From an uncultured Actinomycetota bacterium (lineage in GTDB: Bacteria; Actinomycetota; Actinomycetes; Propionibacteriales; Nocardioidaceae): 64,000 nt of DNA. The notes beneath the pieces were generated by a model. That model worked only from the letters and a program-made list of their open reading frames with translations. It did no database searches and was not told the DNA's origin. Positions 35,278-56,067 of the stretch are shown here, in pieces. The stretch lies in assembly GCA_963818365.1 (NCBI GenBank), contig CAWFRT010000005.1, positions 4,920 to 68,919 of the forward strand, read 5' to 3'. Positions within the stretch are counted from its first letter, which is position 1. Every line of letters starts with the position of its first letter. Position numbers and translations under genes: made by a program.

Positions 35278-35283
35278 AACAAG

Positions 35284-35322
35284 GTGGAGGAAATAGCGCA
35301 CCTGGTGCGCCAATTCCTCCAC
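35284..35322. repeat. ~40-bp palindrome, family P
   Basis: GTGGAGGAAATAGCGCAC-CTG-GTGCGCCAATTCCTCCAC. Confidence 0.85.
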
Positions 35323-35343
35323 TTAGCGAGCCCGAACTAGCCT

Positions 35344-40414: not shown

Positions 40415-41083
40415 ATGGACGGCATTGCTGACATGGGAGGAAAACCCGGTTGGGGGGCGGCCAAGCCGCCGGCCGCCGACGAACCTGTCTTTGCCGAGGA
40501 GTGGGAGGGTCGAGCCTTCGCGTTGGCGCTGTTGTCGATGCGCACGGCGGGCACCAACCTCGACTCGTTCCGTCACGCGTTGGATCGCCAACCACGCGAG
40601 AAATACATCGACGACGGCTATTACGGACGGTGGCTGCACGCTGCCGAACTGATGCTCGTCGAGTCCTCGATCCTGGCCCCGGATGCGGTTGAGGCCCGCG
40701 CCCGCAATCTGCGCGGCGAAGGTATCCCCGAGCCCGGCATCCCCGAGCCCAACAAGCCCGACTATGCCCCAACCGCGGCGGGTTCACTGCGACCGATCGA
40801 CGACGTGCCCGTCTTTGCCATCGGAGACCGTGTACGCGCAAAGGACATTAGCCCCGCCAAGCACACCCGACTAGTCGGCTATGTGCGTGGCCGCGAGGGT
40901 GTGGTGTCGCGGATCGAACCGTCAGCGCTGTTGCCCGACACTCACGCCACTTTCGAGGGCGAAAACCCGCAAAACGTCTATTGCGTCAGTTTTGACTCCC
41001 ACGAATTGTGGGGCGCCGACGCGGAGTCATTCACCTTGAACATTGATCTTTGGGAAAGCTATTTGGAGGCTGCGTCATCATGA
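40415..41083 (+). CDS. nthB: Nitrile hydratase beta subunit
   Basis: [50 protein letters not shown]. Confidence 0.95.
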
Positions 41084-41661
41084 GCGAGGAACATCTGCCG
41101 ATCCAACTTCGAACCGAGGCGCTGGAGCAACTGCTTGTTGAGCGGGGACTGGTCGATCCGTCGATCATGGACCGCTTCATCAGCACCTACGCCAACGACG
41201 TTGGTCCGCTCAACGGCGCCAAGGTCGTCGCGAAGGCCTGGACCGATCCGGACTACAAAGCCCGCTTGCTTGAGGAGGGCACCGCCGCGATCGGCGAGCT
41301 CGGCTTCAAGGGGCCGCAGGGCGAGCACATGGTGGTCGTGGAGAACACTGACGACACCCACAACGTGGTCGTGTGCACGCTCTGCTCGTGTTATCCGTGG
41401 CCGGTGTTGGGATTGCCGCCGAGTTGGTACAAAGACCCGGCGTATCGCTCGCGGGTCGTCCGCGAGCCTCGCGCTGTGTTGTCCGAGATGGGCCTCAACG
41501 TGCCCGCTGAGAAGGACATCAAGGTCTGGGACTCCTCCTCTGAGGTGCGTTTCTTCGTGTTGCCACAGCGCCCGGCTGGGACCGAGTCCTTGTCGGAAGA
41601 GGAACTGGCGGCCCTAGTCACCCGGGACGCAATGGTCGGCGTTGCCGAGGTGTCCGTATGA
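41080..41661 (+). CDS. nthA: Nitrile hydratase alpha subunit, cobalt type
   Basis: [21 protein letters not shown]; CTLCSC is the Co-type motif (Fe-type has CSLCSC). Confidence 0.97.
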
Positions 41662-42047
41662 CGTCCGCCTCCGGCGTACTCGACATCGAAGGGGTGGCCG
41701 CTCCTCCGCGCTCTAATGGCGAGTTGGTCTTTGGCGCCCCCTGGGAGAGCCGAACCTTCGGGATGGCGATGGCGCTGTATGACGCCGGCGCCTTCGCGTG
41801 GGATGACTTTCGCGATGCGTTGATCGCGCGGATCTCGGCCTGGGAGGCGGACCCGCCCGAGGGCGAGTGCTACTCCTACTACCAATGCTGGCAGGGTGCC
41901 CTCGAAGATGTGCTCGCGGCCAAGGGTCTCGTCACCCCCGACACGTTGGCCACCCGCGGTGCCGAACTGGCGGCTCGTCCCGCAGGCTATGACCACGGTC
42001 ACGATCATGGCGACGGGGACCACGACCACGGAGACCACCACCACTAG
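41658..42047 (+). CDS. Nitrile hydratase accessory/activator protein with His-rich tail
   Basis: [23 protein letters not shown], tail [17 protein letters not shown]. Confidence 0.9.
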
Positions 42048-42054
42048 ACGAACA

Positions 42055-42097
42055 GAGTGGAGGAAATAGCGCACCTGGTGCGCTATTTCCTCCACTC
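42055..42097. repeat. Perfect 43-bp palindrome, family P
   Basis: 20-bp arms GAGTGGAGGAAATAGCGCAC / GTGCGCTATTTCCTCCACTC, CTG loop. Confidence 0.92.
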
Positions 42098-42104
42098 TAA
42101 TCCG

Positions 42105-43067
42105 CTACCCCACCCGGCCGAGGGCGATAACGCAGCCCTGTCCGCACGGGTGGAGGGTTCCCTCCCAGCCACCGGCTTCCAGGAGTTGTCCGATGCGCTG
42201 CGCGGTGTGACAGCCGCGGTTGTGGACCTGACCCCAACCCAGCCGCACGGTTTGTCGCCCGTCGACTAGGGCATCCAGATCTCGGTCGAGGTCGCGGTCT
42301 CGTTGGTGCGACGAAGCATGGAAGAGGCGGCCATCGAGTTCAACGGTCAGCCCGAAAGGCTCGAAAGTGAGGTCGTCATAGAGCTTGCCAACGGTGCCAA
42401 CCCACGAGACCTGATGTAACGCCGGAGGCAATCCGTGAGGTCGTTGGACAAGGCGAACGAAGTCGTTTTCCAACACCGAGTGGGTCCCCATCGCAACGTC
42501 ATTGAGGATGCCGATCAGCCAGTCGCGTCGCCGCAACCGCGGACGTTGGTGTAGCGCGGCCAGCAACCGCTCGGGCGTCGTACGCCGTGAGCGGCAGGCG
42601 TCCGCAACCACCTCAAGGGCGTCCATCTCGAAGGGCTGCTCGGCGGCAACATCGAGAACCGCCTCTTCAATCCGCACCCGAGGAGGGCTGCCCTCTCGGA
42701 CGCGGTCGTCAAAGTCGCCCTGTCGGCAGATGACATAGCCGGTTCGCGATTTGACCCGTCTCCCTTGCGAGACCGTGATCGTGATCGGGTCGGCGTCACG
42801 TTCGGGGTGCCAGCCCGGACCGTTGGCGACCCGCAGGGCAGATGTCTTGCCGAGCGCGGCCGGGGCATAGAACAACGTGCCTGCCCACGCCCGTTGTATC
42901 CAGGTCGGCTGACCTGTGTGGTTGATGAAGACCCCGGGCATCAGCCGCACCAGTTGGCGCCTCCGGAGCATTCGATCGAGCGCAGGCTTGGTTACACCGA
43001 TCGCCACCAGCTGTCGGCGAGACACCACACCGTTTTGGTCTGCGAAGAGTTGTCCGAGGGCATTCAT
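42105..43067 (-). CDS. AbiEi-antitoxin-like N-terminal domain plus DUF559/Vsr-like nuclease-fold protein
   Basis: QNGVVSRRQL, LVRLMPGVF, HSVLE, VELDGRLFH, DRDLDRD, TVRLGW. Confidence 0.8.
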   Translation of the reverse strand: MNALGQLFADQNGVVSRRQLVAIGVTKPALDRMLRRRQLVRLMPGVFINHTGQPTWIQRAWAGTLFYAPAALGKTSALRVANGPGWHPERDADPITITVSQGRRVKSRTGYVICRQGDFDDRVREGSPPRVRIEEAVLDVAAEQPFEMDALEVVADACRSRRTTPERLLAALHQRPRLRRRDWLIGILNDVAMGTHSVLENDFVRLVQRPHGLPPALHQVSWVGTVGKLYDDLTFEPFGLTVELDGRLFHASSHQRDRDLDRDLDALVDGRQTVRLGWGQVHNRGCHTAQRIGQLLEAGGWEGTLHPCGQGCVIALGRVG

Positions 43068-43118
43068 CGGTCCAGTGTGTGCGAATCGGCCGACCCAAGG
43101 CGCACGAGCCCCGCTGCC

Positions 43119-43143
43119 TGTGGATGAACCCGCGTGTGGATAA
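43119..43143. promoter_or_regulatory. Two DnaA-box-like 9-mers upstream of the AbiEi/DUF559-like gene
   Basis: TGTGGATAA (43135-43143, reverse complement of TTATCCACA) and TGTGGATGA (43119-43127). Confidence 0.5.
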
Positions 43144-43148
43144 CTAAC

Positions 43149-43185
43149 TGGAGGAAATGGCGCATCTGGTGCGCTATTTCCTCCA
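43149..43185. repeat. Palindrome, family P
   Basis: TGGAGGAAATGGCGCA-TCTGG-TGCGCTATTTCCTCCA. Confidence 0.88.
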
Positions 43186-43369
43186 ACTTAGTCGCCGGAA
43201 AGTTGAGGCTCGCTGATTTAGCGCGTGAATGTGGTCATGGCGACCGTCCAGCTGCGCAACTATGACGCCGCGGCCCATGGCGCTCCGCGGCAGCGAGGTG
43301 CCGATTCGACCCATGCCACGCCTGGCGCGCACCCAGGCGTCGAGTGCGTCGTCGACGTCACGGGCTGAA

Positions 43370-43696
43370 ATGGATGGTTTGATCGCCACCGCAATGGGGC
43401 TCTTCAAGATTGCGGCCGTCGTCGCCGCGACTCTCGCCTCGTCGTGGGCTCTCTTTATGTTCGGCTACTCGAACCCCGAACTGGCTGCGCAGTGGCTGCC
43501 GCGCTTCGATGTTGTCACCAGACACCTTTGGGGGCTGGGCGTCTTGCTCGCCCTATTGGGGCTGAGCATCGGTGCATCGACGAGTCTCATTGCGCGACGG
43601 ATAGGCCAGTCAGCGTGGGCCTTGGTGCCGGGCCTCTGGGTGGTGGCTTGCTTCGCCGTCCTTCTGCTCGGTCCGCATTCCTCGTCGGGTTCCTGA
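43370..43696 (+). CDS. Small hypothetical membrane protein (about three TM helices)
   Basis: Hydrophobic ORF lying between two family-P palindromes. Confidence 0.55.
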   Translation: MDGLIATAMGLFKIAAVVAATLASSWALFMFGYSNPELAAQWLPRFDVVTRHLWGLGVLLALLGLSIGASTSLIARRIGQSAWALVPGLWVVACFAVLLLGPHSSSGS

Positions 43697-43717
43697 CTCT
43701 GGTGGATAACAACTAAC

Positions 43718-43754
43718 TGGAGGAAATGGCGCACCAGGTGCGCTATTTCCTCCA
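43718..43754. repeat. Palindrome, family P
   Basis: TGGAGGAAATGGCGCAC-CAG-GTGCGCTATTTCCTCCA. Confidence 0.88.
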
Positions 43755-43774
43755 CTTAAGTGTCGACCGCCTCC

Positions 43775-44956
43775 TCAGCCGGCGGAAGGGTCGCCGTACA
43801 ACTCAAGGTGGCGGAGGGCGCTGCCGGTCCAGGAATACTTCTCGGCGACGGGTCGCCCGCCCTCGACCAGCCGCGCGCGCAACTCACCGTCGATCGCGAC
43901 TCGCTCCAACGCATCGGCCAGCGCCAGATGATCGGCCACAGCAGGCATCAACGCAGACACCCCGTCGACCAAATATTCGCCGAACACATCAATGTCAGAG
44001 GTCACCGCGGGCCGCCCAGCCGCCAACGCTTCCAGCACCGCGAGACCCCAGCCTTCGTTTGTCGACGGATAGGCGAGCGCGTCGCAGGCGTGATACCAAC
44101 CCACCAACTCTGACTCCGGCACAGTGCCGAGGATGATCACGTCTTTGTCCAACGCCAAACCCAACTCGTCGATCTCGCGCAGGCAATTGTCGCGATAGGC
44201 CGCATAGTCCTGAAACGAGTGACCACCCAACACAGCGACAGCTGGCGGCGAAGGCATCCGCGACTTCAACTCCGCGAGCGCCCGCACGAGATGGATCGCC
44301 CCTTTGCGTGGCTCGAGGCCGCCGACGGCAAGGAACAAGAAGCGATCAGGGGGGATGCCGGTGCGCGCCCGCAACTTTGCAACCAAGTCATCGTCAGCGG
44401 CCGCAAACCGCGGCAGATCCACTCCGTTCCACACCACTGATGCCTCAACCCCATAGTCCGCCAGCAACAATTGGCGCCAATGATCGCTGACCACGAAGAC
44501 CTGATCGGGTTCGTGGATCGCGGCGATCTGGCAATCGATGAGGGCCTGCGTGGTGAAGTCGTCGACGTGATGAACGGTGCGTACGACGCGCACGGGAGTG
44601 TCGCCGTGAGCGATCTGGGCCTCCCTCACCCGCACCGCCGCCCGCGCAGAAATGCAGTCCTGGGTGTGCAGGATGTCGAATCCTCCGACGGCCCGTTGCA
44701 ACCCGACCTCCAGGGCATCAATGCTGGCGAAGACCTTCTCTTCCAAGGTGCCTACATCGCCGGGAGCGGGGAACACCAGCGTCGGAGCAGCGACCTCCCG
44801 ATAGAAGCCCACCTCCGGATCGCCGAGCGTGATGATCGTGACATCCGCACCCGCGGCGTACATCGCCTCGCCCAACGCGAGAGTGTGCACCACCCCTCCG
44901 CGAGGTTTGGTGGAGTAGGTGATTAGCGCTATCCGCGGGCCAGATCTCTCGGGCAC
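43775..44956 (-). CDS. MSMEG_0565-family GT4 glycosyltransferase
   Basis: IALITYSTKPRGGVVHTLAL, LHTQDCIS, TVHHVDDFT, GGLEPRKG, EGWGLAVLEALA. Confidence 0.92.
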   Translation of the reverse strand: MPERSGPRIALITYSTKPRGGVVHTLALGEAMYAAGADVTIITLGDPEVGFYREVAAPTLVFPAPGDVGTLEEKVFASIDALEVGLQRAVGGFDILHTQDCISARAAVRVREAQIAHGDTPVRVVRTVHHVDDFTTQALIDCQIAAIHEPDQVFVVSDHWRQLLLADYGVEASVVWNGVDLPRFAAADDDLVAKLRARTGIPPDRFLFLAVGGLEPRKGAIHLVRALAELKSRMPSPPAVAVLGGHSFQDYAAYRDNCLREIDELGLALDKDVIILGTVPESELVGWYHACDALAYPSTNEGWGLAVLEALAAGRPAVTSDIDVFGEYLVDGVSALMPAVADHLALADALERVAIDGELRARLVEGGRPVAEKYSWTGSALRHLELYGDPSAG

Positions 44957-54528: not shown

Positions 54529-54544
54529 CCTGATTCCAAAGAGC

Positions 54545-54584
54545 GGGGAGTCCTTGGTTCACCTGGTGCGCCACAGACTCCCCC
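54545..54584. repeat. Degenerate palindrome sharing the family-P centre
   Basis: GGGGAGTC...CACCTGGTGCGC...GACTCCCC. Confidence 0.45.
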
Positions 54585-54603
54585 ATCTTTCGGGATTTCG
54601 CGG

Positions 54604-55973: not shown

Positions 55974-56001
55974 CCCACCAGCCCCACGCCCAGATAGTCC
56001 G

Positions 56002-56046
56002 CCGAGAAAATCATGGTTTTCGAGTCCAAAACCATGATTTTCTCGG
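56002..56046. repeat. Perfect 45-bp palindrome (19-bp arms)
   Basis: CCGAGAAAATCATGGTTTT-CGAGTCC-AAAACCATGATTTTCTCGG. Confidence 0.88.
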
Positions 56047-56067
56047 TGGACTATCTGAGGGTGGGGG

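What the first reader, a model, noticed from the sequence alone, without database searches (positions are those of the whole stretch)
42055..43754. AbiEi/DUF559-like gene and a passenger gene bracketed by three ~40-bp palindromes: candidate mobile or cassette-like element
Seen: layout P(42055) - nuclease-fold gene - P(43149) - membrane gene - P(43718), interrupting the locus between two convergent operons. P at 43149 and 43718 also share the flank GTGGATAAC(AAC)TAACTGG. Solo relatives lie at 35284 and, degenerate, at 54545. Two DnaA-box-like sites precede the gene. There is no transposase, integrase or toxin partner. Inference: this protein may maintain or spread its cognate palindrome, by analogy to RAYT/REP systems but with a different nuclease fold.
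Basis: partly seen in the sequence, partly recalled or inferred. Interest (0 to 1): 0.7.

Follow-up and report, generated by a model that had tools for sequence, protein, structure and literature searches.

The report
Nuclease gene framed by its palindromes
A gene for a DNA-binding nuclease sits between copies of its own 49-letter DNA palindrome, which is also scattered through this Nocardioides genome; its four sister genes each have a different palindrome. This looks like an undescribed repeat-plus-enzyme partnership resembling REP/RAYT but built on an unrelated enzyme.

Summary
Three near-identical palindromes (42052-42100, 43143-43192, 43712-43760) frame a 320-aa gene and a small membrane-protein gene. 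A solo copy lies at 35279-35327, and a copy of a different subtype at 54540-54588.

- **Protein:** an AbiEi-antitoxin fold fused to a Vsr/DUF559-type nuclease domain, with no toxin partner.
- **Paralogues:** the genome holds four, each framed by its own distinct palindrome.
- **Relatives:** 27 of 73 homologous loci in other Nocardioidaceae have matching palindromes on both sides (3 of 289 in mismatched pairs).
- **One repeat superfamily:** all palindromes share 2x23-bp arms around a 3-bp centre and a conserved CACCWGGTG core. This is the geometry of the known AbiEi operator.
- **Co-variation:** arm sequence tracks the protein's DNA-binding domain, not its nuclease domain.
- **Same locus, different species:** both flanking palindromes changed type together.
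- **Solo copies:** the two tested are absent from the same sites in close relatives, so they are not fixed terminators.
- **No RAYT:** the genome has no RAYT/Y1 transposase.

Best reading: a cognate protein-palindrome partnership. Binding is well supported by inference. Cutting, and spread of the repeat by the protein, is plausible but untested. I found no publication describing it; this scan has noted the same layout in many other genomes.

The parts
42052..42100 (.). P1: 49-bp palindrome (subtype P_A) just after the stop codons of the nitrile hydratase accessory gene and of the nuclease gene
   Evidence: covariance model 54.6 bits, E = 6e-14
42105..43067 (-). 320-aa gene: AbiEi-type winged-helix DNA-binding module plus AbiEi C-terminal domain, fused to a Vsr/DUF559/REase_MTES_1575-type PD-(D/E)xK nuclease domain
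   Evidence: Pfam AbiEi_4, 26.1 bits against a cut-off of 25. AlphaFold model pLDDT 92. Foldseek: 6y8q AbiEi prob 1.0; 3r3p, 3hrl and AbaSI for the C-terminus. REase_MTES_1575 in 19/60 and DUF559 in 2/60 homologues. Invariant E243, D245, G246, H250, R262, D263.
43119..43127 (-). DnaA-box-like site TCATCCACA, about 61 nt upstream of the start codon
   Evidence: A box TT[G/A]TCCACA (up to 1 mismatch) occurs upstream of 43/73 homologues, clustered 61-63 nt before the gene, against 2/73 on the opposite strand.
43135..43143 (-). second DnaA-box-like site TTATCCACA, abutting P2
43143..43192 (.). P2: palindrome P_A upstream of the nuclease gene, in the divergent region shared with the membrane-protein gene; candidate operator
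43370..43696 (+). Small membrane-protein gene (108 aa from this ATG; the longest ORF starts at 43229). A conserved neighbour, present or absent among relatives.
   Evidence: GC3 0.75. 46% identical homologue at the same relative position in L096. Absent in L095 and L097.
43702..43710 (-). Extra copy of the box (GTTATCCAC) next to P3, so the duplicated unit is palindrome plus box
43712..43760 (.). P3: palindrome P_A between the membrane-protein gene and the 3' end of the MSMEG_0565-family glycosyltransferase gene
35279..35327 (.). Solo copy of P_A between two same-strand genes
54540..54588 (.). Solo palindrome of the same superfamily but subtype P_B, the type that frames the paralogue at genome C4:164391-165347

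Best explanation
The gene encodes a site-specific DNA-binding nuclease whose cognate site is the 49-bp palindrome that frames it. Inferred steps: two protein molecules bind the two 23-bp arms through the AbiEi-type winged helix, as the AbiEi antitoxin does on its own operator. This brings the two Vsr/DUF559-type nuclease domains to the conserved centre CACC-W-GGTG. The upstream copy, together with the adjacent DnaA-box-like sites, probably controls the gene's own expression. Occasional nicking or cutting at palindromes would provoke repair or recombination between copies. That would keep copies of one subtype alike, seed new solo copies at gene ends, and add or delete palindrome-bounded modules such as the membrane-protein gene here. 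It works like a REP/RAYT partnership or a homing system but uses an unrelated enzyme. Shown here: the layout, its recurrence, the co-variation, the gene-repeat co-occurrence and the turnover of solo copies. Inferred: binding. Hypothetical: cleavage and protein-driven spread.
For: 1. All five paralogues in this genome (42-53% identical) are framed by their own distinct palindrome pair, and each subtype also has solo copies: 17, 6, 5, 3 and 2.
2. In 73 homologous loci from other Nocardioidaceae, upstream and downstream flanks match in 27, against 3 of 289 mismatched pairs; p = 5e-18.
3. 72 palindromes align without gaps over 49 columns. All 21 pairs covary, and G-T cells are only about a quarter of the unpaired cells, so the symmetry is at the DNA level.
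4. The geometry of 2x23-bp arms separated by 3 bp equals the experimentally defined AbiEi operator (PMC7319586). The N-terminal 200 aa fold like AbiEi 6y8q.
5. Arm distance correlates with distance in the wHTH domain (rho 0.30; partial 0.27; 0/2000 permutations). It does not correlate with the nuclease domain once the wHTH is controlled (0.08; 212/2000).
6. At the same glycosyltransferase/nitrile-hydratase locus, orthologues at 78-80% identity carry P_A. Those at 66-70% carry another subtype on both sides.
7. Covariance-model hits occur in 40/46 gene-bearing and 0/5 gene-less genomes of the genus; p = 2e-4, not corrected for phylogeny.
8. The solo copies after pgm and msrA are missing at those sites in relatives whose neighbouring proteins are 95% and 91% identical.
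9. Putative catalytic residues are invariant in 60 homologues.
10. The genome has no Y1/RAYT transposase.
Against: There is no biochemical evidence for binding or cutting. Copy numbers are low (2-17 per subtype), unlike classic REP expansions. Homologues in other families of the order mostly lack flanking palindromes (1 of 20 has a pair) while keeping the upstream box, so the palindromes are not needed for the protein's basic role. About half of the Nocardioidaceae loci lack a clear pair. At least one palindrome subtype in this genome has no cognate gene. The gene has stayed at this locus across species, so it is not a recently moving element. I found no clean empty site for a whole cassette. 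The co-occurrence test is confounded by phylogeny, and the model search scored only 24 candidates per genome. An earlier check in this scan on other DNA reported a pre-set test that went against the repeat going with the gene.
Confidence: 0.55

Rival explanations
1. Regulator only. The palindrome is an autoregulatory operator of the AbiEi type, and the downstream and solo copies are transcription terminators or further regulatory sites. The nuclease domain has some other task such as defence or repair, and the protein never moves or edits the repeats.
For: AbiEi proteins are known autorepressors that bind paired 23-bp inverted repeats. The upstream palindrome lies in the promoter region. 13 of 14 solo P_A copies lie within 3-65 nt of a gene's 3' end, and many carry AACAAAGT/ACTTTGTT outer arms that resemble a two-way terminator. 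Distant homologues do without palindromes.
Against: It does not explain why the copy after the stop codon has the same subtype as the operator in every paralogue. It does not explain why both changed together between orthologues, or why solo copies of the same subtype appear at non-orthologous sites in this lineage only. P1-P3 lack a T-tract and are not scored as intrinsic terminators. G-T pairs are not favoured, which argues against selection at the RNA level.
Confidence: 0.2
2. Cassette that lands on hairpins. The gene, with one palindrome, is a selfish cassette that integrates into pre-existing palindromes of the matching type by homologous or site-specific recombination or by homing. That leaves a palindrome on each side. 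Solo copies are landing pads, or scars left by excision. They are not products of the protein copying the repeat alone.
For: Palindrome-bounded modules come and go: [membrane gene + P] is present here and in L096 but absent in L095 and L097, which have exactly one palindrome there. A second P_A-X-P_A segment exists at genome C3:1649754-1650718. The cassette next to fba is absent in 12/12 other species, one of which has a solo superfamily palindrome at that spot. Arms of 22-25 bp are about the minimum for RecA-type pairing (own knowledge).
Against: Paralogues within the genome are only 42-53% identical, so there is no sign of recent cassette copying. No circular or empty-site intermediate was seen. 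It still needs a source for the first palindromes at new sites.
Confidence: 0.2
3. Classic REP/RAYT or IS200/IS605-type mobilisation. The palindromes are moved by a tyrosine HUH transposase elsewhere in the genome, and their association with this gene is secondary.
For: Resemblance of layout only.
Against: There is no match to Y1_Tnp (PF01797) in the 99%-complete genome, while the control genomes ring. Subtype-by-paralogue matching points to the AbiEi-nuclease genes themselves.
Confidence: 0.02

Closest known systems
REP/REPIN-RAYT systems (REP-associated tyrosine transposases) of Proteobacteria
   Same: A single-copy-type gene is flanked by its own palindromic repeat. The same repeat is dispersed outside genes. 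Different gene clades in one genome go with different repeat classes. The gene is largely inherited vertically rather than moving like an insertion sequence.
   Different: The enzyme is unrelated: an AbiEi winged helix plus a PD-(D/E)xK Vsr/DUF559-type nuclease instead of an HUH Y1 transposase. Copy numbers are low (2-17 per subtype). The repeats are perfect 49-bp two-fold palindromes that fit double-strand binding by two monomers, rather than single-strand hairpins with a guide tetranucleotide. The host is an actinobacterium.
AbiEi antitoxin of type IV AbiE toxin-antitoxin systems (S. agalactiae AbiEi, M. tuberculosis Rv2827c)
   Same: The fold of the first ~200 residues matches. The family is known to bind paired 23-bp inverted repeats in its own promoter. 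The site geometry matches (23 + 3 + 23 bp).
   Different: There is no AbiEii (DUF1814) toxin gene. A nuclease domain is fused to the C-terminus. The site is repeated after the gene and across the genome.
Vsr-like 'EDxHD' homing endonucleases (I-Bth0305I) and DUF559 proteins
   Same: A nuclease domain of the Vsr/DUF559 clade is joined to a separate sequence-specific DNA-binding module. The target is long and (pseudo)palindromic. The character is selfish or semi-selfish.
   Different: It is not intron- or intein-borne. The gene does not interrupt its target but is framed by two intact copies. The catalytic motif has not been mapped residue by residue.
Integron gene cassettes (attC)
   Same: Layout of short ORFs separated by imperfect or perfect palindromic sites; modules can be gained and lost.
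   Different: There is no integrase and no attC core sites. Here neighbouring sites are the same sequence, and one of the 'cassettes' encodes the protein that matches the site.

Membership tests
REP/RAYT (REPtron) | Enzyme is an HUH Y1 tyrosine transposase (Y1_Tnp, IS200/IS605-like) | tested here: not met
   The protein is AbiEi-like plus a PD-(D/E)xK nuclease. PF01797 has no match in the whole genome while the controls ring.
REP/RAYT (REPtron) | Gene flanked on both sides by its cognate palindromic repeat | tested here: met
   P1 and P2 frame the gene. All 5 paralogues are framed likewise. 27/73 homologous loci have matching flanks.
REP/RAYT (REPtron) | Same repeat dispersed outside genes in the genome; repeat class matches enzyme clade | tested here: met
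   17 P_A copies, all outside genes. Subtypes P_B to P_E have 2-6 copies each. Arms co-vary with the wHTH domain. Copy numbers are far lower than in typical REP families.
AbiE type IV toxin-antitoxin | AbiEi antitoxin fold with N-terminal winged helix | tested here: met
   Pfam AbiEi_4, 26.1 bits (cut-off 25). Foldseek 6y8q_A: E = 2.6e-5, prob 1.0, TM(target) 0.63.
AbiE type IV toxin-antitoxin | Adjacent AbiEii (DUF1814 nucleotidyltransferase) toxin gene in one operon | tested here: not met
   The neighbours are the nitrile hydratase accessory gene, a small membrane protein and a glycosyltransferase. None has a DUF1814 hit.
AbiE type IV toxin-antitoxin | Operator of two 23-bp inverted repeats a few bp apart in the promoter | tested here: met
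   The palindrome has 21-24-bp arms around a 3-bp centre, 49 bp in all, as against the AbiEi operator described in PMC7319586. Binding itself is not testable here.
Vsr / DUF559 / EDxHD nuclease clade | PD-(D/E)xK Vsr-like fold of the C-terminal domain | tested here: inconclusive
   Foldseek: 3r3p prob 0.95 (TM target 0.60), 3hrl, and AbaSI/PvuRts1I with E = 0.06-2. Pfam REase_MTES_1575 in 19/60 and DUF559 in 2/60 homologues. The window protein itself is below threshold. A profile search of PDB sequences found nothing.
Vsr / DUF559 / EDxHD nuclease clade | Conserved acidic/histidine catalytic residues | tested here: inconclusive
   E243, D245, H250 and D263 are invariant in 60 homologues within an ELDGxxFH...RDxDLDRDL motif. 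I did not superpose them on Vsr D51/H69/D97.
Homing endonuclease gene | Gene lies inside and disrupts its own target site; occupied and empty alleles exist | tested here: not met
   Intact palindromes stand on both sides. No clean empty allele for a whole cassette was found. Only the [membrane gene + P] module shows presence/absence.
Intrinsic (factor-independent) terminator | GC-rich hairpin followed by a T-run | tested here: not met
   P1-P3 were not reported by the terminator scan. Solo copies have only a partial T-rich tail, ACTTTGTT. Function in vivo is not testable here.
DnaA box | Match to the 9-mer TTGTCCACA / TTATCCACA | tested here: met
   TTATCCACA and TCATCCACA stand upstream of the gene. 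The box is present in 43/73 related loci and 17/20 distant loci, often as exact TTGTCCACA. The consensus is from my own knowledge. DnaA binding is not testable here.

The most novel reading that the evidence does not exclude
AbiEi-Vsr nuclease genes and their 49-bp palindromes form a previously unrecognised class of actinobacterial repeat-plus-enzyme element. In it, a modular nuclease is addressed by its winged helix to 23-bp arms and cuts at a conserved centre. This drives gain, loss and homogenisation of its palindromes and of palindrome-bounded gene modules. Specificity has diversified into many orthogonal protein-site pairs, even within one genome.
Probability: 0.35. Interest if true: 0.85.

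Novelty: new variant of a known kind. Interest (0 to 1): 0.72.

Why it matters
If the partnership is real, REP-like repeats in high-GC Gram-positive bacteria would have a dedicated enzyme of a fold not known to do this job. That would be a second, independent invention of the REP/RAYT logic. It would explain a large family of 'hypothetical' or 'AbiEi-domain' proteins: at least 1,174 relatives in the protein collection, present in 183 of 251 sampled genomes of the order. It would also account for long palindromes at gene ends in Nocardioides. It offers many natural, mutually orthogonal pairs of protein and 49-bp site, which is attractive for studying how DNA-binding specificity evolves, and possibly as tools. 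The conserved DnaA-box-like sites hint at a link to the replication state.

Tried and rejected
- **Exact-protein look-up of the window's protein:** not on record.
- **P_A pattern in public collections:** no match in the genome collection or in metagenome contigs. The subtype therefore looks lineage-specific, but no outside copies could be studied that way.
- **Empty site at this locus:** only two genomes of the genus have the glycosyltransferase, and neither keeps the nitrile hydratase next to it.
- **Empty sites for two other cassettes:** synteny is broken on one side in the relatives, both at the fba/lysA-like locus and at the BCCP/exonuclease locus. Only 'cassette absent' could be shown, not a clean junction.
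- **Orthologous solo site around window 35286:** the region is absent from the two relatives searched.
- **CCWGG/Dcm-Vsr idea:** CCWGG is not avoided in the genome (observed/expected 1.03-1.05). I dropped the idea as unsupported.
- **RAYT as the mobiliser:** no Y1 transposase.
- **Canonical terminators at P1-P3:** none reported.
- **Residual nuclease-gene remnant between P2 and P3:** no tblastn signal.
- **One script call did nothing** and was repeated.
Full report
**What is there**

The window is part of a 3.4-Mb, 62% GC genome (contig C5:4920-68919). The best relatives of its genes are Nocardioides species.

Between the nitrile hydratase operon (beta 40415-41083, alpha 41050-41661, accessory 41658-42047, plus strand) and an MSMEG_0565-family glycosyltransferase (43775-44956, minus strand) lie, in order:
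- P1 (42052-42100);
- a 320-aa gene on the minus strand (42105-43067);
- two DnaA-box-like 9-mers (43119-43127 and 43135-43143);
- P2 (43143-43192);
- a small membrane-protein gene on the plus strand (43370-43696);
- a further box copy (43702-43710);
- P3 (43712-43760).

The three palindromes are 92-97% alike. A pattern allowing 3 mismatches has no match in 100 shuffles. As single strands they would fold at -18 to -26 kcal/mol. The copy near 54545 is real but is a different subtype.

**The protein**

- Pfam finds only an AbiEi_4 winged helix at residues 6-48 (26.1 bits, cut-off 25).
- An AlphaFold model built on 60 homologues is confident (pLDDT 92, pTM 0.84).
- Foldseek matches the first ~200 residues to the S. 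agalactiae AbiEi antitoxin (6y8q, prob 1.0).
- It matches the C-terminal third, more weakly, to Vsr-like nucleases: the I-Bth0305I catalytic domain 3r3p (prob 0.95), the DUF559 protein 3hrl, and AbaSI/PvuRts1I.
- Among the 60 homologues, 46 hit AbiEi_4, 19 hit REase_MTES_1575 and 2 hit DUF559.
- The motif ELDGxxFH...RDRDLDRDL carries invariant E243, D245, H250 and D263. This is the kind of acidic/histidine set described for the Vsr/EDxHD clade (PMC3239194; PMC3424549 groups Vsr, DUF559 and 3r3p in one clade).
- There is no AbiEii toxin gene next to it.

So the protein is an AbiEi-like DNA binder fused to a probably active nuclease domain.

**The link between gene and palindrome**

*Within this genome.* There are four paralogues, 42-53% identical. 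Each is framed by a palindrome pair of its own sequence, 60-120 nt upstream of the start and 0-30 nt after the stop. Each has a TTATCCACA-like box between the upstream palindrome and the gene. Each subtype also has solo copies: 17 copies of P_A in all, and 6, 5, 3 and 2 for the others.

*Across relatives.* In 73 homologous loci from other Nocardioidaceae genomes with both flanks available, long palindromes recur at the same two positions. Upstream and downstream flanks of one locus match (score 25 or more) in 27 of 73 cases, against 3 of 289 for flanks paired across loci; p = 5e-18.

*One superfamily.* 72 palindromes align without a gap over 49 columns, with consensus ..G.GGTGG.TC.GA..CACC-W-GGTG..TC.GA.CCACC.C.. 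All 21 arm pairs show changes on both sides. 91% of cells are paired, against 27-40% when the partner is slid. These sequences were chosen as palindromes, so the pairing percentage is partly built in. The informative points are the amount of compensatory change and the conserved centre. G-T cells are only about a quarter of the non-Watson-Crick cells, which is about what neutral transitions would give. The symmetry therefore looks like a DNA-level property rather than an RNA-level one.

**Why I think the protein reads the palindrome**

- AbiEi is known to repress its own promoter by binding, as two monomers, two 23-bp inverted repeats separated by 3 bp. Rv2827c binds two such pairs (PMC7319586). 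The palindromes here have that geometry.
- Across 49 loci, the distance between palindrome arms correlates with distance in the winged-helix domain: rho 0.30, and 0.27 after removing the nuclease-domain distance, with 0 of 2000 permutations as high. It does not correlate with the nuclease domain once the winged helix is accounted for: 0.08, with 212 of 2000 as high.
- At the orthologous glycosyltransferase/nitrile-hydratase junction, metagenomic relatives with 80% and 78% identical proteins carry P_A (L098, L095). Relatives at 70%, 69% and 66% (L097, L096, L013) carry another subtype on both sides. Two independent terminators would not change in step like this.

**Do the repeats go with the gene, and are solo copies fixed?**

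I built a covariance model from the 72 palindromes. I searched 251 genomes of the order with it, and searched the same genomes with a profile of the protein family.
- Within the genus, 40 of 46 gene-bearing genomes have model hits and 0 of 5 gene-less ones do (p = 2e-4).
- Over the order, the figures are 62 of 183 against 3 of 68. Those three have single weak hits.
- Caveats: there is no phylogenetic correction. Only 24 candidates per genome were scored. An earlier check in this scan on other DNA reports a pre-set test that went the other way.

Solo copies are not fixed orthologous terminators, at least for the two I could test.
- The P_A copy 26 nt after pgm is absent after pgm in contigs whose Pgm is 95%, 88% and 87% identical.
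- The copy 3 nt after msrA is absent in four contigs with 84-91% identical MsrA.
- P_A was not found in any other species-representative genome or in the metagenome contig collection.

**Position of copies and module turnover**

- All 14 solo P_A copies lie outside genes, and 13 lie within 3-65 nt of a gene's 3' end. Most are extended by AACAARGT/ACYTTGTT. A terminator-like side role is therefore possible. However, P1-P3 lack a T-run and are not scored as terminators.
- The membrane-protein gene is real. It has a 46% identical homologue at the same place in L096.
- L095 and L097 have the order glycosyltransferase - one palindrome - boxes - nuclease gene, with nothing in between. The module [membrane gene + palindrome + box] is thus an insertion/deletion bounded by palindromes. 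This is what recombination between two copies would produce.
- A second P_A-X-P_A segment exists at genome C3:1649754-1650718.
- The cassette next to fba in this genome is absent downstream of fba in 12 of 12 other species. One of them has a solo superfamily palindrome at that spot.

**Limits of the pattern**

- In 20 more distant homologues from other families of the order, only one has a flanking pair, and of an unrelated sequence. Yet 17 keep a TTGTCCACA-type box upstream.
- The box is therefore the older, constant feature. It equals the DnaA-box consensus of high-GC Gram-positive bacteria (own knowledge). The palindromes are a clade-level elaboration.
- The genome has no Y1/RAYT transposase, so a classic REP mechanism is excluded.
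- CCWGG at the centre is not avoided genome-wide. I make nothing of the Vsr/Dcm coincidence.

**Conclusion**

The best-supported reading is a cognate protein-site partnership. An AbiEi-type binder fused to a nuclease recognises the 49-bp palindrome that frames its gene. I consider binding likely. Cutting at the conserved centre, and repair-driven homogenisation, spread and module turnover, are a reasonable but untested mechanism.

The rivals keep substantial weight: a regulator plus terminators, or a cassette that lands on pre-existing hairpins.

I found no paper that describes this arrangement. The nearest printed hint is that 'DUF559 domain-containing protein' is enriched among predicted inversion targets (PMC9881135). 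Notes of this scan show the same layout was seen and followed up in many other actinobacterial genomes. I consulted those notes only after reaching my reading, and they are not independent evidence.

Noticed in passing
genome C3:1649754-1650718 (outside the window): Two P_A copies 890 nt apart enclose a lower-GC stretch. It holds a secreted-protein-like ORF that seems frameshifted, with the signal peptide in one frame and the body in another. This is a second palindrome-bounded module without a nuclease gene.
   Followed up: partly
window 55996-56052; also genome C4:64050, C4:358407, C3:2006830: An unrelated family of very long palindromes (28-30 bp stems, GATAGTCCGCCGAGAAAATCATGGTTTT...). Another family is built on TCGACCCGGCYC...GRGCCGGGTCGA, with at least 7 copies. 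Neither was examined for a partner gene.
   Followed up: no
genome C4:692245-692350 (outside the window): Three tandem 36-nt repeats (GGTGGTTGAGGAGGCGCGCCAGCGCCGTACTTCCAG) follow the solo P_A after pgm directly. A related GGTGGTTGAGGAGG...CGTCTCGAAACC motif lies near the solo copy at C3:1928899.
   Followed up: no
genome C5:85837, C3:1590700, C3:1862578, C3:771590: A palindrome subtype of the same superfamily (GATGGCGGTAGATC.CAGTCACCAGGTG...) has four copies but no nuclease gene beside any of them in this genome. It may be an orphan subtype, or one served in trans.
   Followed up: partly
window 43119-43143 and loci L099-L118: The 9-mer TTGTCCACA, or a one-off variant, is kept 60-135 nt upstream of family genes even in other families of the order that lack the palindromes (17 of 20). 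This suggests control by a conserved host factor such as DnaA.
   Followed up: partly
genome C4:740914-742197: In paralogue D the reading frame runs through the downstream palindrome and stays open for 430 codons from stop to stop. In L096 the palindrome also overlaps the last codons of the gene.
   Followed up: no
genome C4:117-151 and the end of C5: Contig C4 begins with a P_A copy, and contig C5 ends about 230 nt after paralogue E. Assembly breaks seem to fall at or near these repeats.
   Followed up: no
window 41996-42047: The nitrile hydratase accessory protein ends in a His/Asp-rich tail ([17 protein letters not shown]) immediately before P1. Relatives L096 and L097 have similar His-rich ends.
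   Followed up: no
G096, G124, G152, G205, G225, G231; L124: Several family genes in other genomes carry in-frame stop codons or are truncated. One fragment (L124) sits next to a superfamily palindrome, so decay of the gene with survival of the repeat seems common.
   Followed up: no
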